The translations under genes were made by a program, and so were the position numbers. From NCBI GenBank assembly GCA_964550855.1, contig CAZKBQ010000009.1, positions 6,009 to 70,008 of the forward strand: a stretch of 64,000 bases of DNA, written 5' to 3'. The DNA is from an uncultured Anaerolineae bacterium (lineage in GTDB: Bacteria; Chloroflexota; Anaerolineae; Fen-1058). Shown here piece by piece: positions 2 through 42,868 of the stretch; within the stretch, counting starts at the first letter, position 1; the number at the start of each line of letters is the position of its first letter. A model generated the notes under the pieces. It worked only from the letters and a program-made list of their open reading frames with translations, did no database searches and was not told the DNA's origin.

Positions 2-283
2 GGCGCGGCGCAGGTGGAAGCCTATGAGTTTAGCGCGCCCGGCACGACCGGCCCTAAACGGCTGGACGTTTACTGGTACGAATGCCCATCCATCGCGATC
101 TCGCTGCCGTACCCGACGGACTGCACCGACTCGTCGGAGATCAAGATCAACGCCACGCGCGTGGCCCGGATCGACAAGCTGGGCAATCGAGTGATCATCA
201 ACGATCAGGACGACGGCGTCGCCGACGGCCGCATTCAGCTGACCATTCAATCGAGTCCGATCTACATCGACTATCAACCATGA
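2..283 (+). CDS. C-terminal end of an upstream gene (partial, unknown function)
   Basis: The frame is open from the window edge to TGA 281-283. The stop overlaps the next start (ATGA at 280-283), so this gene heads the same operon. The ~93 visible residues carry no motif I recognise. Confidence 0.45.
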   Translation, partial: GAAQVEAYEFSAPGTTGPKRLDVYWYECPSIAISLPYPTDCTDSSEIKINATRVARIDKLGNRVIINDQDDGVADGRIQLTIQSSPIYIDYQP

Positions 284-1899
284 ACCGACCGCCCGCCCGC
301 CCATGGCCCGCCATCGTAAACTTCAGTGCGGCGCTCGCCATGGTGCTGGGGCTGGGAATGGTCATTGCCGTCACGCTGCACTCCGCAGCCGCTGCTGGCC
401 CCGATCGCGCTCACCCGCCGATCGGGGCCGAGTTGTCTGCCGCCCCCCACAGCGTGGCGCTGCCCCTCATCGCCAGCGGCTTTCCGGGCTACGCCAACTG
501 TCGGCTGGGCGTGGGCGGCGTCATCAGCCCGGCTTACAACGTCGGCGCGCTCAACCTGGGCTGGACGATGGATTGGACGGCGCGGCTCAACCCGCCCGCG
601 CCCAACGGCGTCGATTACGTGCAGGTGGTGCGCATCGATTCCGACGAGACCAACGTCTATACTTTTACGCCGCCGCTGCCCGTCCTGTACCAGATTGCCG
701 ATCAAAACCCCGGCGCGATCTGGCTGCTGGGCAACGAACCCGACAGCCCCTTTCAAGATAATCTGCCGCCCGATCGGTATGCACAGGCCTATCACGATCT
801 GTATCACTGGCTGAAGCAGCGCGATCCAGCGGCACGCATTGGCGCGGGCAGCATCGTGCAACCCACCCCGATCCGGCTGCAATATCTCGATCGCGTCCTC
901 AGCGCCTACTGGCAGTTGTATGGTCAGGGCCTGCCCGCCGATGTGTGGAGCGTGCACTCGTACATCTTGCGCGAGATCGACGCCTCCGATCCACAGGCCT
1001 GCGCCGACGGCATCGACTGCCACGAGCCGCCCTATCTGTTGTGGGGCGCGTTCATGCCGCCCGGCTCGCTGCCTGCGGTCACGCGCGGCGTGCTGTACAC
1101 TTTCTCCAACATGTTCGATACCGCCATCTTCCTCCAGCGGCTGATCGATTTTCGGGTCTGGCTGCGCGATCGCGGCTACCGTGAAGTGCCTTTGTATATT
1201 ACCGAATTCGGCACACTGTTTCCCTATCCGCCCTTCATCGAAGGCGATCCGTACGTCGATGAATTCGGCGTGCCCATGACCCAGGCGCGCACGGCCGGTT
1301 TCATGACTCGCACCTTTGAGCTGCTGCGCACCGCCACCAATGCCGCCACCGGCCTGCCCGCCGACGACAACCGGCTGGTGCAGCGCTGGCTATGGTACAG
1401 CTTCGACGATCCCGGCTTCGGCGGCGCGCTGTATGATCGGAACACCGGCCAGCGCACCCTGCTGGGCAACACGTTGGCCGCTTACGCGCAGGCCATCACG
1501 CCGTCGATCGATCTGCTGGCCGTGCGCGCCGACGCCGATGCGGTGCAGCTGCCGATCGGTCAGACCACGGTGACAGGCACCGTCGCCGCGCTGATCGCCA
1601 ATTCCGGCAACATCTCAACCGGCGCGGCCATCACGGTGACGTTCCGCGCCGGATCGATCGCGCAGCCCGGGGCCGTCATCGGCGCGCCCGTCGTCCTCAC
1701 GCGCAGCCTGCCGGGCTGCGGCGAATCGCTGATCGTCACCGCAACCTGGCCTGACCTCACCGTCGGCGCACATCCCTTCCACTTTGTGATTACGACCGGC
1801 GCCGCCGAATCAAACACAGTGAACAACCAGTCACAGGGCACACTGCTCGTCGCCAGTCAACGCCTGATGCTGCCCGTCGTGGTGCGAACGCCGCGGTGA
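280..1899 (+). CDS. Secreted clan GH-A glycoside-hydrolase-like protein (glycosyl hydrolase catalytic core type) with C-terminal CARDB-like domain
   Basis: 539 aa from ATG 280; the ORF-track start at 82 would overlap the upstream gene. N-terminal signal anchor AIVNFSAALAMVLGLGMVIAV. TIM-barrel signatures WLLGNEPD (acid/base Glu) and LYITEFG (nucleophile Glu). C-terminal IANSGNISTG...ESNTVNN beta-sandwich. Colinear paralog of 5415-6914. Confidence 0.8.
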   Translation: MNRPPARPWPAIVNFSAALAMVLGLGMVIAVTLHSAAAAGPDRAHPPIGAELSAAPHSVALPLIASGFPGYANCRLGVGGVISPAYNVGALNLGWTMDWTARLNPPAPNGVDYVQVVRIDSDETNVYTFTPPLPVLYQIADQNPGAIWLLGNEPDSPFQDNLPPDRYAQAYHDLYHWLKQRDPAARIGAGSIVQPTPIRLQYLDRVLSAYWQLYGQGLPADVWSVHSYILREIDASDPQACADGIDCHEPPYLLWGAFMPPGSLPAVTRGVLYTFSNMFDTAIFLQRLIDFRVWLRDRGYREVPLYITEFGTLFPYPPFIEGDPYVDEFGVPMTQARTAGFMTRTFELLRTATNAATGLPADDNRLVQRWLWYSFDDPGFGGALYDRNTGQRTLLGNTLAAYAQAITPSIDLLAVRADADAVQLPIGQTTVTGTVAALIANSGNISTGAAITVTFRAGSIAQPGAVIGAPVVLTRSLPGCGESLIVTATWPDLTVGAHPFHFVITTGAAESNTVNNQSQGTLLVASQRLMLPVVVRTPR

Positions 1900-5414: not shown

Positions 5415-6914
5415 GTGATCGATCGCACTCGCTGGTTGATACTGGGGCTGGTGCTGGCCCTGGGCGCGGCGCTGCTGACAGCGGCGCTGGCCTCGACCGC
5501 CGCACCAGCCGATCGGGCGGCGGCCGCGCCGCGTTCCGACGATTTTGCCAACTGCCGGTTTGGCGTGGGCGTGGCGCGCAACTCGATCAGTGTTTATCCT
5601 TATACGGCCACGCGCGCCGGCTTCTACGTCAACTGGCTGGCCGCCGACGGGGCCGCGCCGGGCCTGTCGTTCTTCGCCACCATCCGCCTGCGGCAGGTGG
5701 TGTCCAATGGCGTGTACCTGCCGCAATACGTCATCTCGCCCACGCTCGATTTTGCGCCGGGCGGGCTGGGGCCGCTGGTGCTGGCCAATCCGGGCCGCCT
5801 GTGGCTGGTGGGCAACGAAATGGATCGTCCGTACTATCAGGACGAAATGCTGCCGGACATGTACGCGCAGGCCTACCACGACGCGTACACCTTCATCAAA
5901 GGGTTGGATGCCACCGCCCGGGTCGGCATCGGCGGCGTGATCCAGCCCACCCCGGTGCGACTGCAGTATCTCGATCAGATCCTCGACGCCTACCGGCGCA
6001 AGTTCGGCGGCCGCCTGCCCGTCGATGTGTGGAACACGCACCTGTACATTTTGCAGGAGACGCGGCTGTCATGGGGGGCCGGCATCCCGCCCGGCATCGA
6101 TCTGATCACCGGCACGCTGTACACCATTCCGCAGAGCGTGGACGCCGTCGTCTTCGCCGGTCTCATCCGCGATCTGCGCGGCTGGCTGAAGGCGCGCGGC
6201 TATCAGTACACGCCCTTAATCGTCACCGAGTACGGCCTGCTGTTTCCGCTGGACATCCTGGAGAGCCAGGGCGTGACCCTGGCGCAGATGAAACAGTTCT
6301 TGAGCAACGTCATCCACTACATGAACACGGCCTGGGACGCCGAGCTGGGTGATCCGGCCGACAACTACCGGCTGGTGCAGCAGGCCGCCATCTACAGCCT
6401 GGATGATGATTCCACCGACGACCAGGGTTTCTACCGCTGGGGCAGCTTCCTTCACCAGTCGTCGCCGCCCTACACGCAGACCGCCATCGGCGCGCACTAC
6501 AACAACGTGCTGGCCGCGCTGCCCGCGCAGGTCGATTTGATCGCCATGCACGCGCAGGCTGACCCCGGCGCGCTGATTGTGCAACCCGGCGAAACGATCT
6601 CGACTGTGGTCAGCGTCCGGATCGGCAACGGTGGCAACACGCCGTTCAACGCGCCCGTCGTGGTGCGCTTCCGCGAGGTGACGGGCGGGCAGATCGGCGG
6701 AACATGGGAGGCCAGCCTGTCGCCGATGGGCGGCTGCGGACAGACGCGCGAGGTCAGCTTCACGTGGCCCAACCTGGCGATCGGCGCGCACACCGTGCAG
6801 ATAGAAGTGAATCCCGATCGCCACCTTGAAGAGACCAACTATCAGAACAACGCCCTGACACTCACTCTGGTAGCCGGGCCGCACGCGTTCTATCTGCCCG
6901 CGCAGGCACGCTGA
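5415..6914 (+). CDS. Secreted clan GH-A glycoside-hydrolase-like protein with C-terminal CARDB-like domain (paralog of 280-1899)
   Basis: GTG 5415 is the first start after the methyltransferase stop (start uncertain; CTG 5397 is possible). Signal anchor WLILGLVLALGAALLTAAL. WLVGNEMD and LIVTEYG catalytic-Glu motifs. Shared ANCRFGVG and QPTPVRLQYLD blocks. C-terminal IGNGGNTPF...ETNYQNN CARDB. Confidence 0.8.
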   Translation: MIDRTRWLILGLVLALGAALLTAALASTAAPADRAAAAPRSDDFANCRFGVGVARNSISVYPYTATRAGFYVNWLAADGAAPGLSFFATIRLRQVVSNGVYLPQYVISPTLDFAPGGLGPLVLANPGRLWLVGNEMDRPYYQDEMLPDMYAQAYHDAYTFIKGLDATARVGIGGVIQPTPVRLQYLDQILDAYRRKFGGRLPVDVWNTHLYILQETRLSWGAGIPPGIDLITGTLYTIPQSVDAVVFAGLIRDLRGWLKARGYQYTPLIVTEYGLLFPLDILESQGVTLAQMKQFLSNVIHYMNTAWDAELGDPADNYRLVQQAAIYSLDDDSTDDQGFYRWGSFLHQSSPPYTQTAIGAHYNNVLAALPAQVDLIAMHAQADPGALIVQPGETISTVVSVRIGNGGNTPFNAPVVVRFREVTGGQIGGTWEASLSPMGGCGQTREVSFTWPNLAIGAHTVQIEVNPDRHLEETNYQNNALTLTLVAGPHAFYLPAQAR

Positions 6915-7621: not shown

Positions 7622-7650
7622 TTGACGCGGGCTGCGTCACGCGGTACACT
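7622..7650 (+). promoter_or_regulatory. Candidate sigma-70 promoter for the peptidase gene
   Basis: TTGACG (7622-7627), 17-nt spacer, TACACT (7645-7650). AAGGAG RBS at 7678-7683, 6 nt before GTG 7690. Confidence 0.45.
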
Positions 7651-7689
7651 TGCCGGGCCGATTGAGCCGCTTGCCCCAAGGAGACCCGC

Positions 7690-19290: not shown

Positions 19291-19295
19291 GACGC

Positions 19296-19604: not shown

Positions 19605-19608
19605 GCGT

Positions 19609-20742: not shown

Positions 20743-20780
20743 GAGCAGATTATACCAGTGCGAAAGAAGGATGGAGATAG

Positions 20781-20816
20781 GTAATGGGTAACGAGCAACG
20801 AACACTCGTTTGTTAC
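20781..20816. repeat. Short heptanucleotide-repeat hairpin (GTAATGG GTAACGA GCAACGA / TCGTT-T-GTTAC)
   Basis: It uses the same GTAACGA unit as the elements at 9283 and 10922. The imperfect inverted arms are GTAAC..AACGA / TCGTT.GTTAC. It lies between the two GT4 genes. Confidence 0.7.
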
Positions 20817-20833
20817 AGGGCGCTCATTTCCCG

Positions 20834-26692: not shown

Positions 26693-28999
26693 ATGTTCAC
26701 ACGTCGTCTGGCTGTCCTGGCCGTGATCGTTTCGATCGCACTGGGGCTGCTTCCCCCCTATCACACATCGGCCGCGCCGTCGTCGCAGTCGGGCAATCTT
26801 TTGACGAATGGCAACTTTGAGGGCGCGTTTCCCCAAGTCAACTCCAAGGCGCAAGTCGCGGCTGGCTGGACGCCGTTCTGGCTGTCGGGGGAGCCTCCAG
26901 AATTGTATCGACAGCCCACTTATGAACCCAGCGCCAACTGTTCCAAGACGTGCGATCACCGGATTCATTCGGGTGGTAACGCGCAGCGCATGTTCCAGTT
27001 TTTCGGCGCGTATCAGGCCGGCCTGTATCAGGTGGTCAATGTGCCGGAGAACGCCGATCTGCGCTTCAGCCTGTTCGCGCAGGGCTGGTCGTCGGAAGCG
27101 GACAACCCGGAGAATGTGTCCGTCAACGGCACGGACATGCGCATGCGCATCGGCATCGATCCGCTGGGCGGCACCAACCCACAAGACCCGCGCGTGGTCT
27201 GGTCACAGCCGGTCAATGCGCTGGATTCCTGGTATCAGTTCACCGTGTATGCACGGGCGCAGGGCACCCGCGTGACGGTGTTTGCGCTGGCCGCCCCCTT
27301 CGACGCGCGCCGCAAGAACGAAGTTTACTGGGACGACGCAGAGCTGATCGCCTTGAGCGGCGATCTGCAAGCGACGGCGCAGGCCAGCTATCCCACGCCC
27401 ACGCCGCTGCCGTTTGTGCCCACCCCCACGCCGGTCAGTGTGGCGCTGGGGCAGAATTTGCTGACGGATGGCGGCTTTGAAGGCCCGCTCTATATTCCGT
27501 GCAGCCTCAACGATCTAATACCGTGGCGGCATATTTCGTGCGACGGGCTGGACCTTGACGAGCGCCTGCCCGACGGCCGCCGCAAGTACCGCATGTGGAA
27601 CACGGTGCAAGTGCCCATTGGCTGGAAGGGCTGGTGGCTGACGCCCAACAACGATCACGCCGCCCGCGATTATTACAGCAATCACCCCGCCAACTGCTAC
27701 GAAGATGCGCCGGAGGGCTGCGTGGCGTGGCACAATCCCGAATTTCGCGACACAAAGGGTATTGTGTTGGGACCGTCGCGCATCCGATCCGGCACCAACT
27801 CGGTGAAGTATTTTACGTTGTGGAGCGCGCACGAGGCCGGCTTGTTGCAAACAGTGGCCGTGCCGGCAGGCACCACGGTGCGCTTTGGGGTGTATATGCA
27901 GGCGTGGTCGTCTGACAACGATCCCCGCGAGGAATTTCCCAACACCTATCTGTCAGCCGGGCAGACTAGTATGCACATGAAGGTCGGGATCGATCCGTAC
28001 GGCGGTGATGATCCATGGAGCCCCAACATCGTGTGGTCCACCGAGCACGATTCGTATGATAGCTGGGGATATTACGAAGTCCGCGCGGTGGCGCAGACCG
28101 ATAAAGTAACGGTATTTACGCACTCCATGCCGGAAAAGGGCCTTAAGCATAATGACGTGTACGTGGACGACGCCGAATTGGTGGCCATCGACGGCGCGAC
28201 GGCCTTCTCACCGCCGGCTGCGCCAGAACAACCCGCTGCGGCGCCCAGTGCACCCAGTGTACCCAATGTATCTGCGGCCGCGGCGCCCACCGCGTTGCCA
28301 CGCCCCAACGGCGCGCTGGTGCACATCGTGCAGGCCGGCGATACCGTCTTTGGCCTGTCGCTGCAATACGGCGTGCCCATGGACCAGATCTTCCAGCTGA
28401 ATGGGCTGACCAAGGATTCGTACCTGCTCGTCGGGCAGGAGCTGATCATCGCGGGCGGCCAACCCACTGCGCCTGCCACCTCCGAGTCAACGCCGACGGC
28501 AGAGTCCGTATCCGTCGAGCCAACGCCCACGCCCACGCCGCTGGCGGTCGCGGCGGCCAATCCCGCGGCGGCGCTGTTGTGCGTGCGCGCCTTTGAAGAC
28601 ACTAATGCCGACGGTGTGTACGAAGATCGCGACGCGCTGATCCAGGGCACAGTCTTCAACGTAAGCAACGCGCAGGGCAAGCCGGTGGTCAGTTACACCT
28701 CTGACGGGGTGAGCGAGCCTCACTGCTTTACGCGCCTGCAGCCCGGCAACTACACCATCTCGATTGAACCGGCGGCCGATACGACGGCCACTTCCGATCG
28801 GCGCTGGAGCGTAACGCTGCTGCCGGGAAGTACCGTTAACGTGAACTTCGGCAGCCGGCTGAGCACTGTGCCGTCTTCTAAAACTACGACGGCGGGCGAC
28901 GGGGCGGGCGCGGTGACCACGGCGGGTATCGCCGTGCTGGTGATGGCAGGCCTGGGCTTCTGGCTATGGCAGCGCCGACGTAAGCCGGCGCTGATGTAG
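26693..28999 (+). CDS. Secreted multidomain protein: two CBM4_9-like modules, LysM, SdrD-B/Cna-B-like domain, C-terminal TM anchor
   Basis: 768 aa with a signal peptide. Duplicated NLLTNGNFEG... / NLLTDGGFEG... modules each end in VYWDDAELIA / VYVDDAELVA. LysM: VHIVQAGDTVFGLSLQYGVPMDQIFQLNGL. Also CVRAFEDTNADGVYE...GNYTISIEP. The tail is AGIAVLVMAGLGFWLWQRRRKP. Confidence 0.8.
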   Translation: MFTRRLAVLAVIVSIALGLLPPYHTSAAPSSQSGNLLTNGNFEGAFPQVNSKAQVAAGWTPFWLSGEPPELYRQPTYEPSANCSKTCDHRIHSGGNAQRMFQFFGAYQAGLYQVVNVPENADLRFSLFAQGWSSEADNPENVSVNGTDMRMRIGIDPLGGTNPQDPRVVWSQPVNALDSWYQFTVYARAQGTRVTVFALAAPFDARRKNEVYWDDAELIALSGDLQATAQASYPTPTPLPFVPTPTPVSVALGQNLLTDGGFEGPLYIPCSLNDLIPWRHISCDGLDLDERLPDGRRKYRMWNTVQVPIGWKGWWLTPNNDHAARDYYSNHPANCYEDAPEGCVAWHNPEFRDTKGIVLGPSRIRSGTNSVKYFTLWSAHEAGLLQTVAVPAGTTVRFGVYMQAWSSDNDPREEFPNTYLSAGQTSMHMKVGIDPYGGDDPWSPNIVWSTEHDSYDSWGYYEVRAVAQTDKVTVFTHSMPEKGLKHNDVYVDDAELVAIDGATAFSPPAAPEQPAAAPSAPSVPNVSAAAAPTALPRPNGALVHIVQAGDTVFGLSLQYGVPMDQIFQLNGLTKDSYLLVGQELIIAGGQPTAPATSESTPTAESVSVEPTPTPTPLAVAAANPAAALLCVRAFEDTNADGVYEDRDALIQGTVFNVSNAQGKPVVSYTSDGVSEPHCFTRLQPGNYTISIEPAADTTATSDRRWSVTLLPGSTVNVNFGSRLSTVPSSKTTTAGDGAGAVTTAGIAVLVMAGLGFWLWQRRRKPALM

Positions 29000-29066: not shown

Positions 29067-31256
29067 TCAGCGCACGGTCGCGGGCAGGAACAGGGCGTGA
29101 GATAGCGGAAGCGCCTGCACCACGTTGGATGTATCCAGCGCCGTCGGGCCGGTACTCATCGCCTGCACGGTAACCGTGTATGGCAGACCGTCAGTCAGAC
29201 CAGTCAGCATCAGGCCGGCTGCTAAGCCGACTTCGATGGTCGTCCCTTCGTTAGGCGGGGCGGCGTCGGCAGAAGGTTCTACTGTCACGAGGTAATGATC
29301 GACCTGGGCGGCCAGGTGCGGCTCGGTCAGCCATGAAGCATACAGCCGCCCATGGCCGACGGGGGCAGCCACCAGAACCATCGGCAAGTATTCATCTGCG
29401 CCGATATCGGGCGGCGCCAACAATGTCCGAGATTCACCGTCGATGTCGATGGTCAGTCCGCTGCCTACCGCCGCGTCGCGCGCCGCAGACCGGCCAAAGA
29501 TGTGATAGTCAAAATCGGGCGCGCCAGGCGATACAAAATTCGCCGTGCCGGTAATCATCGTCTCCAGCCCCGTTATCACGCCGCGATAGGCGACGTTGAT
29601 GTTGGTTTCGGGAAATTGATTGTTGCTCCACAAGCCGCGGGTCAGAGTAACGATCGATCCGGGCTGCACGTGGAGGGCGTGCCCTGCACCGATGTGTTCG
29701 ATGCCGCCTGCATGATCGGCAAACAATGTGTAATCGAACACCACGCGCGACTCCGGCATGGTGGGCTTGACGGGGCCAATCACGATGGCGCCCGGCGCAA
29801 ACAGGCCGTCGCTAACGGTGTTGCCGGCGATGGTGGTATGCGAGATTACACCGGCCATGCCTTGAAGCCACAGACCGCCGCCACCGCCGCCATAGATCGT
29901 ACCGGTGATGGCCAACAGGGCGTGGTTGGAGCCGATGATGCTGTTTTTGAGGATGACGTTGCCAAAGACTGGATCGAAGTGCGTAAAGGCCAATCCACCG
30001 CCGCCCACCGGCCCCCGATAGTAACCGCCGTTGCCGCCGCGCGCCACATTGTTGACAACCAGCGCTCGATCCATGGCGACATTAGCATCATCGGATTGCA
30101 GCGCGCCGCCTTCGGCAATGGCCGCGCCCGGCGTTGGATTAAGGCCGTCGCCGCCCTGCGCCAGATTATCGCGCAGTACGGTATCCACGTATTGAGCCTG
30201 GCCGTGTTCAAGGTAGAACGCCCCGCCGAAGGCGCCGCCGGCATCCCCGTTGGGCGCATTGCCGCCCAGCGCCCGATTGCCGATGGCCGTAACGTGAGAG
30301 AAGTTGGCCACGGAGCCGTTGTAGAACGCGGCCGCGCCGCCCTGCGCGTCGGCGTAGAGGTAGTATTGAAAAGAATCGAACCACTCGCGGCCGGAGCCGT
30401 TGGTGTCGCCGGCCTGCGCCAGATTGTTGGTAAACGTGACGTACGAGGCGCTGACGATGACGCTGTAGACGTGCAGCGCGCCGCCCACTGCCACGCCGCC
30501 CAGGTTTTGGCCGCGCCCACCTTGCGCCACGTTGTCCTCGAATCGCACGTTTTCCAGCAGGTTGAAAGTGGGCGGCGACAGGTAATTGCTCATCGATAAA
30601 GCGGCGCCCACCGCCCGCCCGCCGATGGTCATATCCACCGCGCCGCCCTGCGCGCGGTTGTTGCGGAAGATCAGATTGCGCAGCGTGAGCGATGAATAGA
30701 CCGACTGTATGGCGCCCCCGTAAGCGGAAGTCTCGACTATCGAGCCGTAGTACACGCCTGCTGCCAGGCAGTTTTGCAGGATGAAGCCTTCCAGGCGCAG
30801 GGCCGAACTCTTAACCAGGATACCGCGATTCTCGCCTCCACCGTCGATGATAGTGGGATAGCGCTCCCAATCGGCAGTCGTCCAGTCATCGCCTGAGTAT
30901 CCGCCCAAAATCGTGAGGTCTTTCTTGTTGATACACAATACCGCCGTGGTGTAGCCCAAGTCATAGCATTTGACCTGATTGGGTGGCAGCCGGTACGTGC
31001 CCTGCGCCACCAGGATTGTATCGCCGGAAACCGCGCGGGTGAGGGCGTAGCTGATCGATCGACAGGGCATCTCAGGCGAGCCACAATCTCGATCGTCAAG
31101 GCCGGTGGTCGAAACGCGAATCGTGCCGGTGCCGCGTTGTGACGCGACGGGCGGCACGCTGGAAGTCAAGAGCATCAGCGCAGCGCCAATCATCATGCCC
31201 GCCAGGAAAGGGCGGAACGATCGGGAATGCCAGAAGAGCGTCAGGAGGGTTTTCAA
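29067..31256 (-). CDS. Secreted right-handed parallel beta-helix protein (choice-of-anchor-Q-like) with C-terminal Fn3-like domain
   Basis: 729 aa if it starts at TTG 31256 (ATG 31196 is the alternative). Signal anchor present. N-terminal cap CGSPEMPCRSISYALTRAVSGDTILVAQGTY. Many Gly/Asn-rich beta-helix coils (NN.A.GG). DIGADEY motif, then an Fn3-like tail. Confidence 0.85.
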   Translation of the reverse strand: MKTLLTLFWHSRSFRPFLAGMMIGAALMLLTSSVPPVASQRGTGTIRVSTTGLDDRDCGSPEMPCRSISYALTRAVSGDTILVAQGTYRLPPNQVKCYDLGYTTAVLCINKKDLTILGGYSGDDWTTADWERYPTIIDGGGENRGILVKSSALRLEGFILQNCLAAGVYYGSIVETSAYGGAIQSVYSSLTLRNLIFRNNRAQGGAVDMTIGGRAVGAALSMSNYLSPPTFNLLENVRFEDNVAQGGRGQNLGGVAVGGALHVYSVIVSASYVTFTNNLAQAGDTNGSGREWFDSFQYYLYADAQGGAAAFYNGSVANFSHVTAIGNRALGGNAPNGDAGGAFGGAFYLEHGQAQYVDTVLRDNLAQGGDGLNPTPGAAIAEGGALQSDDANVAMDRALVVNNVARGGNGGYYRGPVGGGGLAFTHFDPVFGNVILKNSIIGSNHALLAITGTIYGGGGGGLWLQGMAGVISHTTIAGNTVSDGLFAPGAIVIGPVKPTMPESRVVFDYTLFADHAGGIEHIGAGHALHVQPGSIVTLTRGLWSNNQFPETNINVAYRGVITGLETMITGTANFVSPGAPDFDYHIFGRSAARDAAVGSGLTIDIDGESRTLLAPPDIGADEYLPMVLVAAPVGHGRLYASWLTEPHLAAQVDHYLVTVEPSADAAPPNEGTTIEVGLAAGLMLTGLTDGLPYTVTVQAMSTGPTALDTSNVVQALPLSHALFLPATVR

Positions 31257-31277
31257 GGGCCTCGATTATATTCACAC

Positions 31278-31317
31278 AAAAAAAATCGACCTGTCAGGCG
31301 ATTCTGACAGGTCGATT
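31278..31317 (-). terminator. Rho-independent terminator of 31353-33503
   Basis: 14-bp stem AATCGACCTGTCAG / CTGACAGGTCGATT. On the minus strand it is followed by TTTTTTTT. Confidence 0.8.
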
Positions 31318-31352
31318 GTAGGTCAAGACTCGACCAGGGTCAAGCGTTGATT

Positions 31353-33503
31353 TTAGCGAAAAGTACCGGGCAGTCTTACCGCATATGGATACGGTGTGGC
31401 CGGGGTCGCATTGGAGCTGTCCAGCAGCGTATTGGAACTGTTGTAAGCCGCCAGCGTGAAGACATATTCCCGACCGTTGGTTAAGCCGGTCAAAGTCAGC
31501 GTCGATTTCAGGCCAACGTTGATCGTCGAGCCTTGAGCGGGCGGCGTGGCGCCGGGCGGCGTGACGACCGTGATGACGTAGTGATGGGTGCTGGCGGCCA
31601 GCAGATCGTTGGTCAGCCAGCTGAGTGTGATGCGACCGCTGCCGGTGGGGGCCGCGCCGAACACAAACGGGATATACTCGTCGGCACCGATGTCGGCCGG
31701 CGCAAATTCCGTGCGCGATTCGACATCCAGGTCCACCTGGTCGTCGCTATCCACGGCCTGGTTGCGCGCGGCCGAGTTGCCCAGGATATGATAGTTGTAG
31801 TCGGGCGCGCCCGGCGACGCGAAGCGGGCGGCGCCGCTGAGCATGGTGCCCAGACCGTTGATGGTGCCTGCCGCGTAACCGCCGCTGTTGGTGTTGAGCG
31901 TGTTGTTGCTCCACAGGCCGCGCTTCAGGTTGATGGTGCTGCCCGCCTGAACATAGACCGCGCCGCTGCCGCCGGTGTGATCGGCAATGATCAGGTAATT
32001 GGCGTTAACGGTGGTGCCCGCGGCCGGCCCATACGGCCCGATGACCACTATCCCTGATCCGACCAGCCCACTATCGACGGTGTTGCGCGCCAGCGTCGAA
32101 TGGGTGAGATTAACCGTCAACCCTTGCAACCACAATCCGCCGCCGCCGCCGCCCTGTAGCTGCCCGGTCGTGGCCAGCTGTACACGATTGTCGGCAATGA
32201 TGCTGTTATTGACGTTGATCGTGAAATTGGAGGATTCAATACCGGTGAACGAAGCGCCACCGCCGCCCGCCGGCCCTTTGTACACGGTTCCATTGCCGCC
32301 GCGCACGGTGTTGTTGATGATGGTCACTCGCTCCAGCGTGATATTGGCATCATCGCTGTGAAACGCCCCGCCTTCGGCCAGGCCGCCCGCGCCGGCAGCG
32401 GTGTTCGCACCGTCGCCGCCCTGGACCAGATTGTCACGCAATTCGGCATCGCGCAACGTTGTGTTGGCGTGTTCCACATAGAAGGCCCCGCCAAACGCCG
32501 CGCCCGATGTCCCGTTGGGTGTATTGCCGCCGAAAACCTGGTTGCCTGTGGCGGTCACGTACTGAAAATCGCCGACGGAATCGTTGTAGATCGACACGGC
32601 GCCGCCCTGCGCATCAGAATAGATGTAACCGCCCAGACCGCTGCCGTTGGATGAACCCGACTGCGCCACGTTGCCGGTGAAGGTGAGGCGCCGGCCGGTC
32701 ACATACACCCGATAAGCGTGCATGGCCCCGCCGATGGCATTGCCGCCGCGCTGCACGCCGGTGCCGCCGATTGCCGAGTTGTTCTCAAAGACCACATTGT
32801 CCAGCCAGACGTTGTACGGCGTCGTTCCGAAATTGTTGAACGCTAAGGCCGCGCCTACAGCGCTCCCGCCATATTCCAGATTGGTGTTACCGCCACGCGC
32901 CTGGTTGTGGCGGAAGATCATGTTGCGCAGTGTGATCGGCGCGAGCGTGGCCGACATTCCGCCGCCATAGGCGTGAATCGCCAGTTCAGTACCGCTGGAT
33001 GCGCCCTGCGCCAGACCGTCCTTGATGATAAAACCTTCCACCCGATAAGTGCCGTTCTGTAGCGCCATGCCGCGATATTGGTTCTGGCCGTCAATAACGG
33101 TGAGATACCGCGCCGGATCGGCCGCCGTCCAATCGTAACCCGAATACCCGCCCAGGATCGTCAGGTCTTTGCCGTTCACACACACCACTGCGCTGGTCAC
33201 ACCAAAGTCAGGGCAGGGCGTCGTCGGCGCGCTGGCTGCATCGTACGTGTAGACCCCTTCCGCCACCAGCACCGTGTCGCCCGACAGCGCGCGGCGGGTG
33301 CCATACTGGACTGTGCGGCACGGATTCTGCTCGGAGCCGCAGCTCTGATCATTCTGCCCCCACGGAGCCACCCGCACGATGCCGGTTCCGCGCTGCGCAT
33401 ATGAGATCGGTGTGTTGACGCTCAACGCGGCGGTCAGCAAACTGACCACCATTCCAACGATGGCGATTCTTGATAAGGTGTATTTGGGTGCTCTGGTATT
33501 CAT
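31353..33503 (-). CDS. Secreted right-handed parallel beta-helix protein (paralog of 29067-31256)
   Basis: 716 aa from ATG 33503 (MNTRAPKYTLSRIAIVGMVVSLLTAAL). CGSEQNPCRTVQYGTRRALSGDTVLVAEGVY cap. Colinear with its neighbour (roughly half the residues identical by eye), including GGGGGGLWLQG and DIGADEY. Confidence 0.85.
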   Translation of the reverse strand: MNTRAPKYTLSRIAIVGMVVSLLTAALSVNTPISYAQRGTGIVRVAPWGQNDQSCGSEQNPCRTVQYGTRRALSGDTVLVAEGVYTYDAASAPTTPCPDFGVTSAVVCVNGKDLTILGGYSGYDWTAADPARYLTVIDGQNQYRGMALQNGTYRVEGFIIKDGLAQGASSGTELAIHAYGGGMSATLAPITLRNMIFRHNQARGGNTNLEYGGSAVGAALAFNNFGTTPYNVWLDNVVFENNSAIGGTGVQRGGNAIGGAMHAYRVYVTGRRLTFTGNVAQSGSSNGSGLGGYIYSDAQGGAVSIYNDSVGDFQYVTATGNQVFGGNTPNGTSGAAFGGAFYVEHANTTLRDAELRDNLVQGGDGANTAAGAGGLAEGGAFHSDDANITLERVTIINNTVRGGNGTVYKGPAGGGGASFTGIESSNFTINVNNSIIADNRVQLATTGQLQGGGGGGLWLQGLTVNLTHSTLARNTVDSGLVGSGIVVIGPYGPAAGTTVNANYLIIADHTGGSGAVYVQAGSTINLKRGLWSNNTLNTNSGGYAAGTINGLGTMLSGAARFASPGAPDYNYHILGNSAARNQAVDSDDQVDLDVESRTEFAPADIGADEYIPFVFGAAPTGSGRITLSWLTNDLLAASTHHYVITVVTPPGATPPAQGSTINVGLKSTLTLTGLTNGREYVFTLAAYNSSNTLLDSSNATPATPYPYAVRLPGTFR

Positions 33504-33676: not shown

Positions 33677-36232
33677 TCACCGAGGGACTATCTGCACCCG
33701 ATCGATCACGAAGCCCAACGTGCGATCGTCGGCGCTGAGGTGCAAGGCAGCGGGGTTAAAACTCGCGGTGTCAAAAGCCAATGTCGATGAGTCGCCGGCC
33801 GGCCGGGATTGAACCTGAAACGCATAAGTCTGCCATTCCCCATAGCGCGGTGTAAAGCGCCCAATCTCGCGCCCGTCCAATGACACGCTCACTTCGGCGG
33901 GCGGCAGATCCTCCGGGCGAAACGTCATCGCGCGCACCGTGATCGTGATCGGAGCCGCCTCCGCCAACGGCAGATCGATGATGGCCCGATCGCTCGTCCA
34001 GCGCGCCGACGTCCCATCGGGCAAAATATCCTTGGCGTAAAAACCTGATCGTAGATAAGCTGCATCCAATGTGCCGACGTCGATCTCAATCGGCAGTGGC
34101 GCAGCACGCAAGTCTTTACGCTGCACATCATAGATCTCAAAGCCGTAATACGCCGGCTGAATCACCGCTGGATAATCGTAAAACGTCCCCATCAAAGCGC
34201 GCAAAGTTGTGGAATACAGGCCCGCCGGCTTCAGATCGATAGCGTGATGCACCGCCGCCGGCAGGGGATCGATCGTCAGCAGCTGCACCGGCCGATTGGA
34301 TGCGGCGGCCTGCGCCAAAACCCGATCGAGCACGGCGGCGACCGCGGCTTCGTCTTCGCTGCGGATCGTCGCCACATCGTGTCCAAAGGTAAAACGCAGC
34401 GGCACGCCCAACGCATCGGCCAGTGACGATTCCGGCGGATCGACCATGACCACGATGGCGTTCGGCTTCAGCTGCGCATTGAGCGCGGTCAGCGCATCCA
34501 CCGCGCCAAAGAAATCACGCTGCGGCAGCACAAACCGTGCCTGATAGATCAGCCCGGCCATCAGGCCCAGCGTCAATGCCAGCGCCGCGCCACGAGTGAG
34601 CCAGCGCCGACGCCAGTCCCACATTCCCCACAAGGCGTAAGCCGCAAAGATCATCAGCGTCGGCAGAACAATGGGCACATAGCGGCGCATGGCGTAGATG
34701 TGATACGGGGTGTTGAAGATGTTATACACGTATTGAATCGTCGTCAGCACGCCCACCGACAGGAACAGGCCCAGCCGCAGCAGCGCAGCGCGGCGCACCA
34801 GCCAAGCCGCGCCCCACGTCGCCAGCCCGATGCCGAGCGGCGTGATGTACCAGCCTATCCGCACCCAGTTCTGCGCGTCGAGCACGGGATACTGCACGTT
34901 GCCGGGCCAGGCCGTGACAAAGCGGATCGGCTCGATGACGGGGCGCACGAAATAAGCAAAAATACTGATCGCCGTCAGCCCGCCCGCCAGCAGCCAGCGG
35001 GCGCGCTGCCGCGCCGCCGATGACAATGTCCGGCGACGCCAGCGCCGCCGCAGCGCGCTGACGGCGATGACCGTCGCCAGCATGCCGGCCGCGCCGCCGG
35101 CGGCGATCACCGGCGAGCGCTCCAGCAGGCGCGCCACACTGCCATACGTGTTCCAGGCATACGGCCAGTTGATGGCGATCAGATCGATCAACATGTGAAC
35201 GGTGAAGATGCCCAGCGTCAGCGTGAACCACGTCCACGCGCGCGTCCACTGCCCGCGCGCCCGCACGGCGATCAACGCCACGCCGATCAACGCCAGCACC
35301 AGCGGCAGATCGATGCGCGTCAGCACGGCCGCGCCGAAGGCCGCGCCGCCGAAGACGCCCCAGATGGCGGGCGCCGATCGATCGTCGATCAGGACTTGAA
35401 AAGCCAGCAGGCCGCTGAAGACCAGCAGCAGCGTCAGCGGCTCGGTGGTGGGGTAGCGCGCAAAGTAGATGTGCGTGGGCGTGAGCGCCAGCAGCGTCGC
35501 GGCCAGCAGCGCCACCCGCCGATCGAACAGCTGTCGCGCCGCAAAATACACCGCCGCCAGGCTCAGCACACCCCACAGCGGCGTGACCAGCAGGCCCAGC
35601 TTCAGGCCGCCCAGACTGGTGCCTACGGCGACGAGCGCGGGATGCAGGGGCAAAAACTGAGGGATGATGCGCCCGGCGTCCGCGTCGTCCAGGTAATAGC
35701 CGACAAACTGTAGATAGCGCGTCTGCCACGCGGGCGGCTGCCGGCGCAGGGTCACGTCGGGATAGTCGCGCATGAGCCGCGACCAATCGTCGCCGGTCAC
35801 GACAAATTGGCCGGTCTGCGCCAGGGTGCTGCTGATGTTCAGATACGTGCCCGCATCGGTGCCGCCCAGCACGTACTCGTGCGGCCGGAAGTACACCACG
35901 GCGCTGCCGATAAGCAGGACTGCTAAACCGACTTCGTATCGTGTGGGGGCGCGGAAGATCGATCGGGGACGGCGGCGAAGCCAAAAGAGCAGCCCCACGG
36001 AGCAGACCCATTCGATCAGGCCGATCCAGCCGATCGAGTACGAGTTGATTGACGCCAGGATCACGCCGATCCAGCCGGTGACGATGACGGCGCTGATGAC
36101 GGCGAGGAATACGGCCAGCGGCCAGTCGAGCGGGCGCGCGCTGGCGGCCCAGGCCAGCAACGCAGTGGTGATCAACGCGAGGCAGCCGGTGACGAACAGG
36201 ATCGCGGCCGGCGCGTCAACTACGCCGATCAT
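33677..36232 (-). CDS. Large GT-C-like polytopic membrane glycosyltransferase with C-terminal extracytoplasmic domain
   Basis: 851 aa with about 15 TM helices. The YVLGGTDAGTYLN loop and ALTPTHIYFARYPTTEPL segment resemble ArnT/PMT_2-type enzymes. A ~290-aa soluble C-terminus ends in DDRTLGFVIDRVQIVPR. The start overlaps the wzt-like stop (ATGA). Confidence 0.8.
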   Translation of the reverse strand: MIGVVDAPAAILFVTGCLALITTALLAWAASARPLDWPLAVFLAVISAVIVTGWIGVILASINSYSIGWIGLIEWVCSVGLLFWLRRRPRSIFRAPTRYEVGLAVLLIGSAVVYFRPHEYVLGGTDAGTYLNISSTLAQTGQFVVTGDDWSRLMRDYPDVTLRRQPPAWQTRYLQFVGYYLDDADAGRIIPQFLPLHPALVAVGTSLGGLKLGLLVTPLWGVLSLAAVYFAARQLFDRRVALLAATLLALTPTHIYFARYPTTEPLTLLLVFSGLLAFQVLIDDRSAPAIWGVFGGAAFGAAVLTRIDLPLVLALIGVALIAVRARGQWTRAWTWFTLTLGIFTVHMLIDLIAINWPYAWNTYGSVARLLERSPVIAAGGAAGMLATVIAVSALRRRWRRRTLSSAARQRARWLLAGGLTAISIFAYFVRPVIEPIRFVTAWPGNVQYPVLDAQNWVRIGWYITPLGIGLATWGAAWLVRRAALLRLGLFLSVGVLTTIQYVYNIFNTPYHIYAMRRYVPIVLPTLMIFAAYALWGMWDWRRRWLTRGAALALTLGLMAGLIYQARFVLPQRDFFGAVDALTALNAQLKPNAIVVMVDPPESSLADALGVPLRFTFGHDVATIRSEDEAAVAAVLDRVLAQAAASNRPVQLLTIDPLPAAVHHAIDLKPAGLYSTTLRALMGTFYDYPAVIQPAYYGFEIYDVQRKDLRAAPLPIEIDVGTLDAAYLRSGFYAKDILPDGTSARWTSDRAIIDLPLAEAAPITITVRAMTFRPEDLPPAEVSVSLDGREIGRFTPRYGEWQTYAFQVQSRPAGDSSTLAFDTASFNPAALHLSADDRTLGFVIDRVQIVPR

Positions 36233-37485: not shown

Positions 37486-37497
37486 GACGAATACACC

Positions 37498-38520: not shown

Positions 38521-38592
38521 GCTGCCGGTGCTCCCATCCAATCGATTGTGATGCGAACGGCTATTATACTGCATTCGCCCGGGGGCACGGGG

Positions 38593-41047: not shown

Positions 41048-42868
41048 TCATCGCGCGGCGGGCGTGATGGGCAGGCCCGTCACACGGAAATTGTCGAAGC
41101 GGGCATCCGATTTGGGTGTCACCTCGTACGGGATGGTGATGACGCCCACACCGGTCAGACCGGTGATCGAACCATCTGACCAGGTCAAATACGAGTAGCC
41201 GTTGGCGCCCACCGAAATCTGATCGGCGTTGCGCGTGACCTTCAGGTGATTGGGCGTGCCGTAATTGTTCAGGCCCGGCACCAGGCCGCCGTTGAGGTAG
41301 GTGTAGCCGTTCGCGTCGAAGCGATACAGTGCGAAGCCGCCGTAATCGGTGCTGACAATGAACAGGTAGTAGCGACTGAAGTCGGCTGTGACGCCGAAGA
41401 TCAGCCCGTAGAATTTGCCAGGTGTGCCTTCCCAGCGCGCATCAACTTCCACCACGTAGTTCTGCCGACTGCAGGTGGGGGCGCGGAATGCATAGCTGTA
41501 TCCGCTGTGCTTGCTGTAGACCCGGAACTCGCCGTTCAGATATTGCGACAGCACGTTCCCGTCTTCAACCACCAGCCAGCCGCTGGCGGGATTACTAAAA
41601 TCATCAAAGTAATCCGGGCAGTTGTTGTAGTTGCGGGCCGTCATCGGTTGAAAGACTTGACGAATGGGATCGGCCGGATCAAACTCATAGGCCCCGATGT
41701 CGCAACGCGCGACGGTGTCGCCGTCGCCATCCACCGGGCGCGGCCGGCCCCGTTGATCCGATGTGAGAACCTCGCCCTGATGATTCAAACAGCCGGCCGG
41801 ATCACCGTGATCGATGGCGGCGCTGCCGGCGAACAAGGCGTAGCTGCCGCCCAGCAGCAAGCCGTTCGCTTTCACGTTGAGCCGATCGCCGGTGGACGCC
41901 GTAAACGAGCAGCCCGATGTCGTGCTGACGAGGTTATAGCCCTCACTGGTGAGGGCGCCGGCGCAGTCGGACTTGCCCGCGTTGCGCACACGATTATCCG
42001 CAATCAGGCTGTTGCGCAACGTCAGCGCACCCACGTTGTTTGCCACACCGGCCCCGCTCAGGCCGCCTTCGTTCTCAGTCACTGTGACATTATTGAGTTC
42101 GACACTGCCGCCATAATAGTTGTACACTCCGCACCCGCTGAAGCCGCAGGTGTTGCGACTGATGGTGCTGTTGTCCAGCACCACCGTCCCCCACGAGTTG
42201 TACAGGCCGCCTACCAGTCCACCGCCCGATGAGTTGTGCCCGATAAATGAATTGATCACGCTCAGCTGGCTGCCCACATTGTAAATGCCGCCAACGTCGC
42301 TGATGATCTGGCTGCCGGTGATCGTCATCACCCCGGCGTTGACGATGCCGCCTTTTTCGGAAAAGCTGTTGTTATCCGCCACGATGGAATTGGTCAGGGT
42401 CAACACGCCATTGTTCTGGATGCCGCCCGCTTCGTTGTCGTTGACGGGGTGATAACCGTGTCGCACGGTAAACCGATCGAGACTGGCAGTTACGCCATTG
42501 CCCACCGTCAGCCCGCGCCGCGTGGCTTCGCCATCGATAATCGATTCTCCGGTCTGCGCCGTAAACGCGGCATCCCAGCCGCCTGTCAGCGCGAGGTCTT
42601 TGTCAATGACCACCACGGCTGTGCCTGCGGCGGCTGTGTAAACGCCCGCTGCTACTCGCACGCTATCGCCGGCCGCCGCCTTGCCGATGGCGGCGTTGAT
42701 GGTGGCGCAGGGAGCGTTCGGCGAGAGGCAGTCATTGGCATCGCTGCCGCCTGGGGCCACATACCATCCATCCGATGCAAAAACTGTCCTGGACGCCAGC
42801 TGCATCGCGATGATCCCCGACGCCATCAGCAGCATGGGAAACAGGACACGGACGAGTTGTCTCAACAT
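41048..42868 (-). CDS. Secreted beta-helix protein (choice-of-anchor-Q-like) fused to a C-terminal lectin/LamG- or DUF1080-like beta-sandwich
   Basis: 606 aa from ATG 42868 (MLRQLVRVLFPMLLMASGIIAM). Cap DANDCLSPNAPCATINAAIGKAAAGDSVRVAAGVY. The beta-helix coils end in RCDIGAYEF, followed by a ~190-aa domain (FDDFSNPASGW...FRVY...YYLFIV...FDNFRV). Confidence 0.85.
   Translation of the reverse strand: MLRQLVRVLFPMLLMASGIIAMQLASRTVFASDGWYVAPGGSDANDCLSPNAPCATINAAIGKAAAGDSVRVAAGVYTAAAGTAVVVIDKDLALTGGWDAAFTAQTGESIIDGEATRRGLTVGNGVTASLDRFTVRHGYHPVNDNEAGGIQNNGVLTLTNSIVADNNSFSEKGGIVNAGVMTITGSQIISDVGGIYNVGSQLSVINSFIGHNSSGGGLVGGLYNSWGTVVLDNSTISRNTCGFSGCGVYNYYGGSVELNNVTVTENEGGLSGAGVANNVGALTLRNSLIADNRVRNAGKSDCAGALTSEGYNLVSTTSGCSFTASTGDRLNVKANGLLLGGSYALFAGSAAIDHGDPAGCLNHQGEVLTSDQRGRPRPVDGDGDTVARCDIGAYEFDPADPIRQVFQPMTARNYNNCPDYFDDFSNPASGWLVVEDGNVLSQYLNGEFRVYSKHSGYSYAFRAPTCSRQNYVVEVDARWEGTPGKFYGLIFGVTADFSRYYLFIVSTDYGGFALYRFDANGYTYLNGGLVPGLNNYGTPNHLKVTRNADQISVGANGYSYLTWSDGSITGLTGVGVITIPYEVTPKSDARFDNFRVTGLPITPAAR

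What the first reader, a model, noticed from the sequence alone, without database searches (positions are those of the whole stretch)
29070..31385. Five secreted enzymes of unrelated fold end in the same short tail: hydrophobic-x-L-P-x(3-6)-R-stop
The last residues of the five proteins are:
- 280-1899: ...QRLMLPVVVRTPR (nt 1858-1896)
- 5415-6914: ...HAFYLPAQAR (nt 6882-6911)
- 29067-31256: ...HALFLPATVR (nt 29070-29099)
- 31353-33503: ...YAVRLPGTFR (nt 31356-31385)
- 41048-42868: ...VTGLPITPAAR (nt 41051-41083)

All five have N-terminal signal or anchor sequences. All terminate in Arg. All place L-P 5-9 residues from the end.

The folds differ: GH-A TIM barrel plus CARDB in two cases, and beta-helix plus Fn3 or a lectin-like domain in the others. 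The tail is therefore not simply inherited with a domain.

The tail is far too short for a TM anchor. It lacks the motif + helix + basic-cluster layout of LPXTG, PEP-CTERM, GlyGly-CTERM or MYXO-CTERM signals, and it lacks a T9SS CTD. I cannot map it to a catalogued sorting signal.

Choice-of-anchor beta-helix domains are named for occurring with interchangeable C-terminal sorting signals. That makes a new tag plausible, whether for processing, wall or sheath attachment, or recognition by the neighbouring GT-C glycosyltransferases.

Caveats: the proteome is Arg/Pro/Ala-rich. One cytoplasmic epimerase ends ...KRPAAVR and the 851-aa GT-C ends ...QIVPR. These resemble the last few residues only.
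Basis: seen in the sequence. Interest (0 to 1): 0.75.

Follow-up and report, generated by a model that had tools for sequence, protein, structure and literature searches.

The report
Known "YLP-box" tail on secreted proteins
Four of the five short tails are weak copies of the "YLP-box", an 8-9 residue C-terminal tag carried by many exported proteins of filamentous Chloroflexota; NCBI already lists it as a putative sorting motif, but nobody has shown how it works.

Summary
The tails are in the sequence as described, and they are not chance.

- **Conservation.** Homologues of the beta-helix+Fn3 and GH+CARDB proteins share only 30-50% identity. About two thirds to three quarters of them still end in [VIL]-[YF]-L-P-x-[VI]-x-[RK], followed by 0-4 more residues.
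- **Distribution.** A genome-wide DNA scan for the canonical tail returned 120 loci, 96 of them labelled Chloroflexota. There the match closes long ORFs that have signal peptides.
- **Passengers.** 78 tail-bearing proteins carry 106 different Pfam families.
- **Structure.** AlphaFold leaves the tail as a low-confidence coil outside the fold.
- **Not new.** NCBIfam 20.0 holds two models, NF050076 'sort_motif_YLP' and NF053834 'ultrashort_CTERM'. Both are named 'YLP-box putative sorting motif'. Canonical tails of orthologues reach their cut-offs. The four window tails give no hit, so they are degenerate members.
- **Fifth tail.** VTGLPITPAAR is the end of a lectin-like domain, not a YLP-box.
- **Mechanism.** No paper on the motif and no recurrent neighbouring gene were found. 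The proposed link to the GT-C glycosyltransferases is not supported. How the tag works remains unknown.

Verdict: a real feature of a known kind, with divergent new members.

The parts
280..1899 (+). Gene for an exported GH-like (Glyco_hydro_cc) + CARDB-like protein of 539 aa with a signal or anchor sequence. It carries tail 1.
   Evidence: The gene call of 539 aa matches L121:3563-5182.
1864..1887 (+). Tail 1 core, LMLPVVVR. It is a degenerate YLP-box followed by a 3-residue extension, TPR (1888-1896), and the stop (1897-1899).
   Evidence: PSSM score 10.6 with offset 3. Extensions of 1-4 residues occur in 26% of homologue tails.
5415..6914 (+). Gene for an exported GH (TIM-barrel-like) + CARDB protein of 499 aa. 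It carries tail 2.
   Evidence: P0121 is 100% identical.
6888..6911 (+). Tail 2, FYLPAQAR. It is a degenerate YLP-box directly before the stop codon.
   Evidence: PSSM score 11.9. The Pro is invariant and the Leu is at least 90% conserved in a 45-sequence family alignment. The AlphaFold model gives coil with mean pLDDT about 60 for residues 490-499.
29067..31256 (-). Gene for an exported right-handed beta-helix (DUF1565) + Fn3 protein. It carries tail 3.
29070..29093 (-). Tail 3, LFLPATVR. It is a YLP-box variant directly before the stop codon.
   Evidence: PSSM score 15.8. 76 of the 120 listed homologues end in the motif.
31353..33503 (-). Gene for a paralogous beta-helix + Fn3 protein. It carries tail 4.
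   Evidence: Orthologue P0006 ends YAVRLPGTYR.
31356..31379 (-). Tail 4, VRLPGTFR. It is a strongly degenerate YLP-box: the aromatic residue is replaced by Arg and +1 is Gly. It counts as a member by positional homology only.
   Evidence: PSSM score 2.0. Same position as RIVLPTVTR, FVYLPSIRR and FVYLPLIMR in family members.
41051..41083 (-). Fifth 'tail', VTGLPITPAAR, of the choice-of-anchor-Q + lectin-like protein (gene 41048-42868). It is NOT a YLP-box. VTGLP is the conserved end of the last domain.
   Evidence: PSSM score negative. Homologues with that domain end ...FDNFxV[TS]xLP(G). No NCBIfam hit.

Best explanation
**What it is.** Tails 1-4 are divergent copies of the YLP-box. This is an ultrashort C-terminal linear motif, [VIL]-[YF]-L-P-x-[VI]-x-[RK], followed by the stop or by 1-4 polar residues. 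It is attached to a large and heterogeneous set of Sec-exported proteins in Chloroflexota. The labelled hits come from Anaerolineae in the broad sense (including Thermoflexales, Caldilineaceae and Ardenticatenaceae) and from Chloroflexia.

**Shown here.**
- It is under selection at the peptide level.
- It is independent of the passenger domain.
- It is unstructured in the model.
- It was found only on proteins with an N-terminal signal or anchor sequence.
- It is confined to the extreme C-terminus.

**Inferred.** After export the free tail is read as a peptide tag by a factor encoded elsewhere in the genome. That factor either retains the protein on the cell or filament surface or processes it. 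Processing could be cleavage within or next to the motif by a sortase-like, CAAX-protease-like or gingipain/legumain-like enzyme, possibly with transfer to an envelope component. In layout the tail is a compressed tripartite sorting signal: a signature (Y-L-P), a hydrophobic stretch of only 3 residues, and one basic residue. It therefore cannot span a membrane and must be recognised as a soluble C-terminal peptide. The identity of the factor, and whether cleavage happens at all, are unknown.
For: **Conservation in orthologues.**
- 76 of 120 beta-helix+Fn3 homologues and 45 of 60 GH+CARDB homologues end in the motif, at 30-50% identity.
- The Pro is invariant in the family alignment.

**Modularity.**
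- Homologues that lack Fn3 carry the tail directly after the beta-helix (P0062, P0072, P0077, P0082, P0100).
- 24 choice-of-anchor-Q proteins carry it directly after that domain.
- Other homologues have SLH wall-binding repeats at the same end (P0081, P0083, P0087, P0095, P0098).

**Genome scan for [VIM]YLPL[VIM]xR-stop.**
- 96 of 120 loci are labelled Chloroflexota.
- There, 88 of 98 matches close an open frame of at least 100 codons. In other phyla only 5 of 24 do.

**Selection on the peptide.** Third codon positions vary freely.

**Position specificity.** The internal rate is 6e-5 per position. By comparison, 14 of 380 genes that were not used as seeds end in the motif.

**Export.**
- 12 of 131 proteins with an N-terminal hydrophobic segment carry the tail, against 0 of 206 without one (p = 8.6e-6).
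- 26 of 33 full-length seeded proteins have such a segment.

**Passengers.** 106 Pfam families occur in 78 tail proteins. They include Beta_helix, DUF11, peptidases C25, M23, C13 and C11, PPC, PKD and LRR.

**Structure.** AlphaFold gives mean pLDDT 91.8 for the protein. The last strand ends at residue 488, and the last ten residues (490-499) are coil with mean pLDDT about 60.

**Catalogued as a putative sorting motif.** NF050076 and NF053834 hit canonical tails at 15-21 bits and orthologue tails at 12.9-18 bits. A canonical tail, LYLPIVRRD, sits on the same contig just upstream of the window.
Against: - **Window tails fail the models.** None of the four is detected by either NCBIfam model, even at E <= 10. 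Membership rests on positional homology and on my own matrix, which was trained on regex-selected tails and is therefore partly circular.
- **Tail 4 lacks the aromatic residue.**
- **No machinery found.** There is no recurrent neighbouring gene and no experimental paper.
- **Chemistry.** In 74% of tails the basic residue is the last residue. An enzyme could not form an acyl intermediate at that residue, so any cleavage would have to lie further upstream.
- **Weak predictors.** The signal-peptide call is a hydrophobicity heuristic, not a trained predictor.
- **Weak taxonomy.** The taxonomic limits rest on record titles of 120 loci from a scan that was cut short. L007, L011 and L023 carry real tails but are labelled as other phyla.
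Confidence: 0.6

Rival explanations
1. The tail is a passive sticky end. The hydrophobic stretch plus one basic residue partitions weakly into the membrane surface or a hydrophobic sheath or wall layer. This keeps enzymes near the filament without any dedicated enzyme or receptor.
For: Seven contiguous hydrophobic residues are followed by Arg or Lys. No linked enzyme gene was found. The tail is unstructured and exposed.
Against: The strongest conservation is sequence-specific: an aromatic residue at -2, Leu at -1 and an invariant Pro (3.4, 3.1 and 4.5 bits). It is not merely hydrophobic. Eight residues would give only weak partitioning. A generic anchor would not need to sit within 0-4 residues of the end.
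Confidence: 0.15
2. The tail is a second-step export or release signal rather than an anchor. It would be read by a Chloroflexota-specific system that moves Sec-exported proteins through the outer wall or sheath layers, as the CTD does for the type IX system.
For: It occurs only on proteins with signal peptides. The passengers are typical secreted hydrolases and adhesin-like repeats. Peptidase C25 relatives, the family of the type IX sortase PorU, are among the carriers.
Against: No secretion-system genes recur near tail genes. Known signals for outer-layer transit are folded domains of 70-100 residues, not 8 residues. Nothing here separates this reading from retention.
Confidence: 0.12
3. The tail marks substrates for the neighbouring GT-C (PMT_2-type) glycosyltransferases.
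For: In the window, four tail genes lie among three PMT_2 genes, a DUF2142 gene and other polysaccharide genes.
Against: Elsewhere tail genes are scattered. Among 138 neighbours in about 90 other loci, no family recurs in more than 3 and no GT-C family is among the recurrent ones. The motif has no conserved Ser, Thr or Asn acceptor.
Confidence: 0.04
4. The tail is a structural or stabilising cap of the last domain, for example a final beta-strand or protection against carboxypeptidases.
For: It directly follows beta-sandwich domains (Fn3, CARDB) in the window proteins.
Against: The AlphaFold model leaves it as low-confidence coil beyond the last strand. The same tail follows unrelated domains and long Pro/Thr linkers.
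Confidence: 0.04
5. The tail is a chance product of an Arg/Pro/Ala-rich proteome, or a nucleotide-level element that overlaps gene ends.
For: The proteome is GC-rich (63-65%). Some cytoplasmic proteins in the window also end in Arg.
Against: The internal rate is 6e-5 per position. Only the three real gene ends among 847 six-frame ORFs score 10 or more. Synonymous positions vary freely across 98 sites. The motif is conserved across 30-50% identical orthologues.
Confidence: 0.01

Closest known systems
YLP-box putative sorting motif (NCBIfam NF050076.1 'sort_motif_YLP' and NF053834.1 'ultrashort_CTERM')
   Same: Same position at the extreme C-terminus, same length (10-11 model positions) and same core (aromatic-L-P, then hydrophobic residues, then R). 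Canonical tails from the genome scan and from orthologues of the window proteins reach the models' cut-offs.
   Different: The four window tails are not detected by either model. They have A, G or V at +1, Q or T at +2, L or R instead of Y/F in two cases, and a 3-residue extension in one. The models are narrow in general: they found only 26 of 115 tail-bearing homologue C-termini at E <= 1.
Tripartite C-terminal sorting signals (LPXTG/sortase, PEP-CTERM/exosortase, PGF-CTERM/archaeosortase, GlyGly-CTERM/rhombosortase, MYXO-CTERM/myxosortase)
   Same: A modular C-terminal tag on many unrelated exported proteins of one lineage. The order is signature motif, hydrophobic residues, basic residue. 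It occupies the slot after 'choice-of-anchor' domains. The definition of the tripartite design is taken from bioRxiv 10.1101/2023.06.07.544157.
   Different: There is no transmembrane helix (3 hydrophobic residues instead of about 20). There is one basic residue instead of an Arg cluster. No cognate enzyme is known. The paper read does not mention it.
Eukaryotic CAAX box processed by Rce1 (CPBP family)
   Same: An ultrashort C-terminal motif without a membrane helix, read a few residues from the end. I draw this analogy from general knowledge. CPBP relatives process bacterial sorting signals according to 10.1101/2023.06.07.544157.
   Different: There is no Cys and no lipidation site. The substrates are extracytoplasmic, not cytosolic. 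No CPBP gene has been linked here.
Type IX secretion CTD with the PorU sortase (peptidase C25 family)
   Same: A C-terminal tag on many secreted hydrolases and adhesins of one phylum. C25-family peptidases are among the YLP-box carriers.
   Different: The CTD is a folded domain of about 80 residues in diderm Bacteroidota. Here the tag is 8-9 unstructured residues.

Membership tests
YLP-box (NCBIfam NF050076 / NF053834) | Score at or above the curated cut-off of the model (15 bits for NF050076, 10 bits for NF053834). | tested here: not met
   The full-length window proteins gave no hit at E <= 0.1. Their C-terminal 24-28-mers gave no hit at E <= 10. HMMER's speed filters may hide scores below about 11 bits.
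YLP-box (NCBIfam NF050076 / NF053834) | The motif lies at the extreme C-terminus of the protein. | tested here: met
   Tails 2-4 end at the stop codon. Tail 1 is followed by 3 residues.
YLP-box (NCBIfam NF050076 / NF053834) | Positional homology with tails that do pass the models. | tested here: met
   Orthologue tails LYLPLIRR, VYLPLVMR and FVYLPLIMR score 15.6-18 bits on NF050076 and 16.2-17.2 bits on NF053834. They align with the window tails.
YLP-box (NCBIfam NF050076 / NF053834) | The carrier is an exported protein with an N-terminal signal peptide or anchor. | tested here: met
   A hydrophobic N-terminal segment is present in all four. The AlphaFold model shows an N-terminal helix at residues 2-24 followed by a disordered linker. 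This is a heuristic; no trained predictor was available.
YLP-box (NCBIfam NF050076 / NF053834) | The host lineage also carries canonical copies. | tested here: met
   L121:974-2101, on the same contig, ends LYLPIVRRD. That tail, which has one extra residue, was itself not detected by the models. The closest named homologues are from Thermoflexales and Anaerolineae.
LPXTG / sortase signal | An LPXTG pentapeptide followed by a transmembrane helix and a basic tail. | tested here: not met
   There is no T-G after L-P-x. Only 3-4 residues follow the Pro. No NCBIfam LPXTG hit was found.
PEP-CTERM, GlyGly-CTERM, MYXO-CTERM and other tripartite signals | A signature motif, a transmembrane segment of about 20 residues and an Arg cluster. 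| tested here: not met
   The tail is too short, and no NCBIfam hit was found.
Type IX secretion CTD | A folded C-terminal beta-sandwich of about 80 residues matching the CTD models. | tested here: not met
   No Pfam or NCBIfam CTD hit was found. The last folded domains are Fn3 and CARDB.
YLP-box, fifth protein (41048-42868) | The aromatic-L-P-hydrophobic-basic core at the end of the protein. | tested here: not met
   The PSSM score is negative. No NCBIfam hit was found. Its L-P is the conserved end of the lectin-like domain.

The most novel reading that the evidence does not exclude
The YLP-box is a genuine sorting signal of a new architectural class. It has no membrane helix and is read as a free C-terminal peptide. 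An undiscovered enzyme or receptor, specific to filamentous Chloroflexota, processes it. The window lineage would then show a relaxed or shifted recognition code (h-h-L-P-[AGTV]-x-x-R, aromatic residue optional) that the current NCBIfam models miss. That would mean the true substrate set is several times larger than what is annotated.
Probability: 0.4. Interest if true: 0.65.

Novelty: new member of a known kind. Interest (0 to 1): 0.35.

Why it matters
Chloroflexota are abundant filamentous bacteria in mats, sediments and wastewater plants. How they keep or release their many extracellular enzymes is not understood.

In the sample taken here, about 9% of proteins with an N-terminal signal or anchor segment carry this 8-residue tag. 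A tag that sorts proteins without a membrane helix would be a different solution from every characterised sortase-type system.

For this window the practical points are smaller:
- The tag is already catalogued.
- The window adds divergent copies that the curated models miss.
- The models recover only about a quarter of the real tails in two families, so annotation undercounts the substrates.

Tried and rejected
- **Read-through of the stop into a hidden membrane anchor.** Rejected. The downstream frames hold stops and terminator hairpins.
- **A shared DNA repeat at gene ends.** Rejected. Only the CTGCCC of Leu-Pro is shared, and synonymous sites vary.
- **Literature.** Searches for the peptide strings, 'YLP-box', and Chloroflexota with sorting, sortase or C-terminal motif gave nothing relevant. 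The 2023 survey of sorting signals does not mention it. A paper on activated-sludge secretomes does not either.
- **A linked enzyme.** A Pfam census of 138 neighbours of tail genes showed no recurrent family.
- **Another known sorting signal in the window.** The LysM/SdrD_B protein at 26693-28999 ends in a membrane helix plus RRRK, but matches no NCBIfam signal.
- **Not run.** I judged a profile search of the tail against the 1.84-billion-protein library useless, because 8-9 columns cannot reach significance.

Full report
**1. Observation**

The five C-termini read as reported: LMLPVVVR-TPR, FYLPAQAR, LFLPATVR, VRLPGTFR and VTGLPITPAAR. Each is followed by a genuine stop. Downstream frames contain further stops and, for three genes, terminator-like hairpins, so read-through into a hidden anchor is excluded. 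The window has 62-66% G+C. A rough gene call gives about 47-50 genes, 8 of which end in Arg.

**2. Conservation in relatives**

- **Beta-helix+Fn3 protein (29067-31256).** Its homologues come from MAGs labelled Thermoflexales, Ardenticatenaceae, Anaerolineae and Caldilineaceae and share 33-50% identity. Most of them end in a tail such as FVYLPLIMR, FVFLPLVLR or HFIYLPVILR.
- **GH+CARDB protein (5415-6914).** 45 of 60 homologues end in the motif. In a 45-sequence alignment the tail Pro is invariant and the preceding Leu is at least 90% conserved, on a par with core residues.
- **Consensus from 145 tails.** V/I/L at -3, Y/F at -2, L at -1, P at 0, L/A/V/I/T at +1, V/I at +2, any residue at +3, and R (64%) or K (30%) at +4. 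The stop follows directly in 74%; otherwise 1-4 mostly polar residues follow.
- **Modularity.** Family members without Fn3 carry the tail straight after the beta-helix. Others carry SLH wall-binding repeats in that place.
- **Choice-of-anchor-Q family (query 41048-42868).** Only 24 of 120 have the tail, and these are the ones that stop right after the choice-of-anchor-Q domain. Members with the lectin-like C-terminal domain of the window protein end ...FDNFxV[TS]xLP(G). The fifth tail is therefore a look-alike.

**3. Not chance**

I built a position matrix from the 145 tails. It is partly circular, because the tails were chosen by a regex.

- Scores for the window tails are 15.8, 11.9, 10.6, 2.0 and negative.
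- In 462 called genes from related loci and the window, the motif occurs inside proteins at 6e-5 per position.
- Among 847 six-frame open frames of the window, only the three real gene ends reach 10 bits.

**4. Distribution**

- 96 loci carry Chloroflexota labels. These include Anaerolineae, Thermoflexales, Caldilineaceae, Ardenticatenaceae, Chloroflexaceae, Chloroflexus, Roseiflexus, Herpetosiphonaceae, Oscillochloris, Viridilinea and Chloroploca.
- None is labelled Dehalococcoidia, Ktedonobacteria or Thermomicrobia. This is suggestive only, because several records are labelled just 'Chloroflexota'.
- In Chloroflexota loci, 88 of 98 matches close an open frame of at least 100 codons and 6 more are cut by the locus edge. 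In other phyla, 19 of 24 lie in closed open frames shorter than 100 codons (9-76 codons).
- For uniform base composition I estimate a few hundred chance matches in the whole collection. That Chloroflexota are only a few per cent of species is my own knowledge, not a tool result.
- Third codon positions of the 98 sites vary freely, so selection acts on the peptide.
- L007, L011 and L023 are labelled as other phyla but hold convincing tail proteins. This could be mis-binning or a wider range, and it was not resolved.
- L057 and L083 look like chance hits on cytoplasmic proteins.

**5. Who carries it**

- Excluding the seeded genes, 14 of 380 genes in these loci and the window end in the motif with a score of at least 10.
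- Among full-length genes, 12 of 131 with an N-terminal hydrophobic segment have the tail, against 0 of 206 without one (Fisher p = 8.6e-6).
- 26 of 33 full-length seeded proteins have such a segment. The rest look like mis-called starts.
- A Pfam census of 78 tail proteins finds 106 families. These include Beta_helix, DUF11, peptidases C25, M23, C13 and C11, PPC, PKD, LRR, RCC1 and Calx-beta, the usual content of a surface or secreted proteome.

**6. Structure**

AlphaFold2 on the GH+CARDB protein with 45 homologues gives mean pLDDT 91.8. The last CARDB strand ends at residue 488. The last ten residues (490-499) are coil with mean pLDDT about 60. The tail is a free linear peptide, not part of a fold.

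**7. Context**

The window is an envelope-polysaccharide locus. It holds three PMT_2 GT-C enzymes, DUF2142, two GT2, two GT4, a Bac_transf initiating transferase, a Wzt ABC ATPase, two epimerases and a class A PBP.

Elsewhere the tail genes are scattered. Among 138 genes within two positions of a tail gene, no family recurs in more than 3 and none is a GT-C or a peptidase candidate.

**8. Comparison with what is known**

- Scanning short C-terminal pieces against NCBIfam 20.0 showed that the motif is already catalogued. NF050076.1 'sort_motif_YLP' has 11 positions and a cut-off of 15 bits. NF053834.1 'ultrashort_CTERM' has 10 positions and a cut-off of 10 bits. Both are named 'YLP-box putative sorting motif-containing protein'.
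- Canonical tails score 15-21 bits.
- Tails of orthologues of the window proteins also pass.
- The four window tails are not detected, and neither is the canonical LYLPIVRRD just upstream of the window on the same contig.
- The models are narrow. They found 26 of 115 tail-bearing homologue C-termini at E <= 1. Only 13 of 145 regex tails match YLPL[VI]xR exactly.
- I found no paper that names or tests the motif. The 2023 survey of C-terminal sorting signals defines them as signature + transmembrane helix + Arg cluster and does not mention it.
- The YLP-box fails that tripartite definition. It also fails the definitions of LPXTG, PEP-CTERM and the type IX CTD.

**9. Mechanism**

Shown: this is a peptide-level, passenger-independent, unstructured, strictly C-terminal tag, found here only on proteins with an N-terminal signal or anchor segment, in one phylum.

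Inferred: it is read after export by a factor encoded elsewhere, for surface retention or processing.

- The sharp conservation of aromatic-Leu-Pro argues for protein recognition rather than generic hydrophobic sticking.
- The requirement to lie 0-4 residues from the end suggests a reader that senses the C-terminus, as CAAX proteases and some transpeptidases do.
- Because the basic residue is usually the last one, any cleavage must lie further upstream.
- Retention, release and passive anchoring cannot be separated with these data.

**10. Verdict**

The feature is real and biologically meaningful, but it is of a kind already catalogued. The window contributes four divergent members and one false one. 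The open questions are which factor reads the tag and what happens to it. Those questions are about the YLP-box in general, not about this window.

Noticed in passing
L121:974-2101 (+), same contig as the window and just upstream of window nt 1: A secreted Vgb_lyase-like beta-propeller protein ends in SGLYLPIVRRD. This is a canonical YLP core plus one residue (PSSM 22.4), yet the NCBIfam YLP models did not detect it.
   Followed up: partly
window 26693-28999 (+): A protein with a signal peptide, LysM and SdrD_B ends ...AGIAVLVMAGLGFWLWQRRRKPALM. That is a classical membrane helix plus basic cluster at the C-terminus. It matches no NCBIfam sorting-signal model, so the organism may have a second, unclassified C-terminal anchor type.
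   Followed up: partly
L058, L089, L099:3129-3440: Small secreted proteins of about 100 aa end in the tail. Two of them share a Cys motif just before it (..LCSGYWCGGAAENNIYLPLIMR and ..SALCIGYICEGTHSIYLPLIIR). This may be a family of small Cys-containing YLP-box proteins.
   Followed up: no
L019 (Anaerolineae MAG), end of a 1764-codon ORF: Two tail copies lie in tandem at the C-terminus: ..FFLPLMK-FIYLPLITR.
   Followed up: no
L007:26-745 and 915-1652; L011:3-1481; L023: These contigs are labelled Patescibacteria (38% GC), Gammaproteobacteria and delta proteobacterium. They carry convincing signal-peptide proteins with YLP tails, and L007 has two adjacent paralogues. The cause is either mis-binning or mislabelling, or the motif reaches beyond Chloroflexota.
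   Followed up: partly
window 1904-3460, 24569-26611, 33677-36232, 39603-40958, 17854-21946, 36229-39576: The window is a large envelope-polysaccharide locus. It holds three PMT_2-type GT-C enzymes, DUF2142, GT2 x2, GT4 x2, Bac_transf, a Wzt ABC ATPase with its C-terminal glycan-binding domain, and two epimerases. The tail-bearing beta-helix and GH-like enzymes sit among them.
   Followed up: partly
NCBIfam NF050076 / NF053834 against alignment A4: The curated YLP-box models detect only 26 of 115 tail-bearing C-termini in two families at E <= 1. Tails with F at -2, a residue other than Leu at +1, K at +4, or an extension are largely missed.
   Followed up: yes
window 6982-7707 (-): An HNH-endonuclease-like ORF sits between the tail-2 gene and a peptidase gene. 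It has weak NCBIfam similarity to IscB or retron HNH, and Pfam HNH is recorded for the same gene in L121.
   Followed up: no
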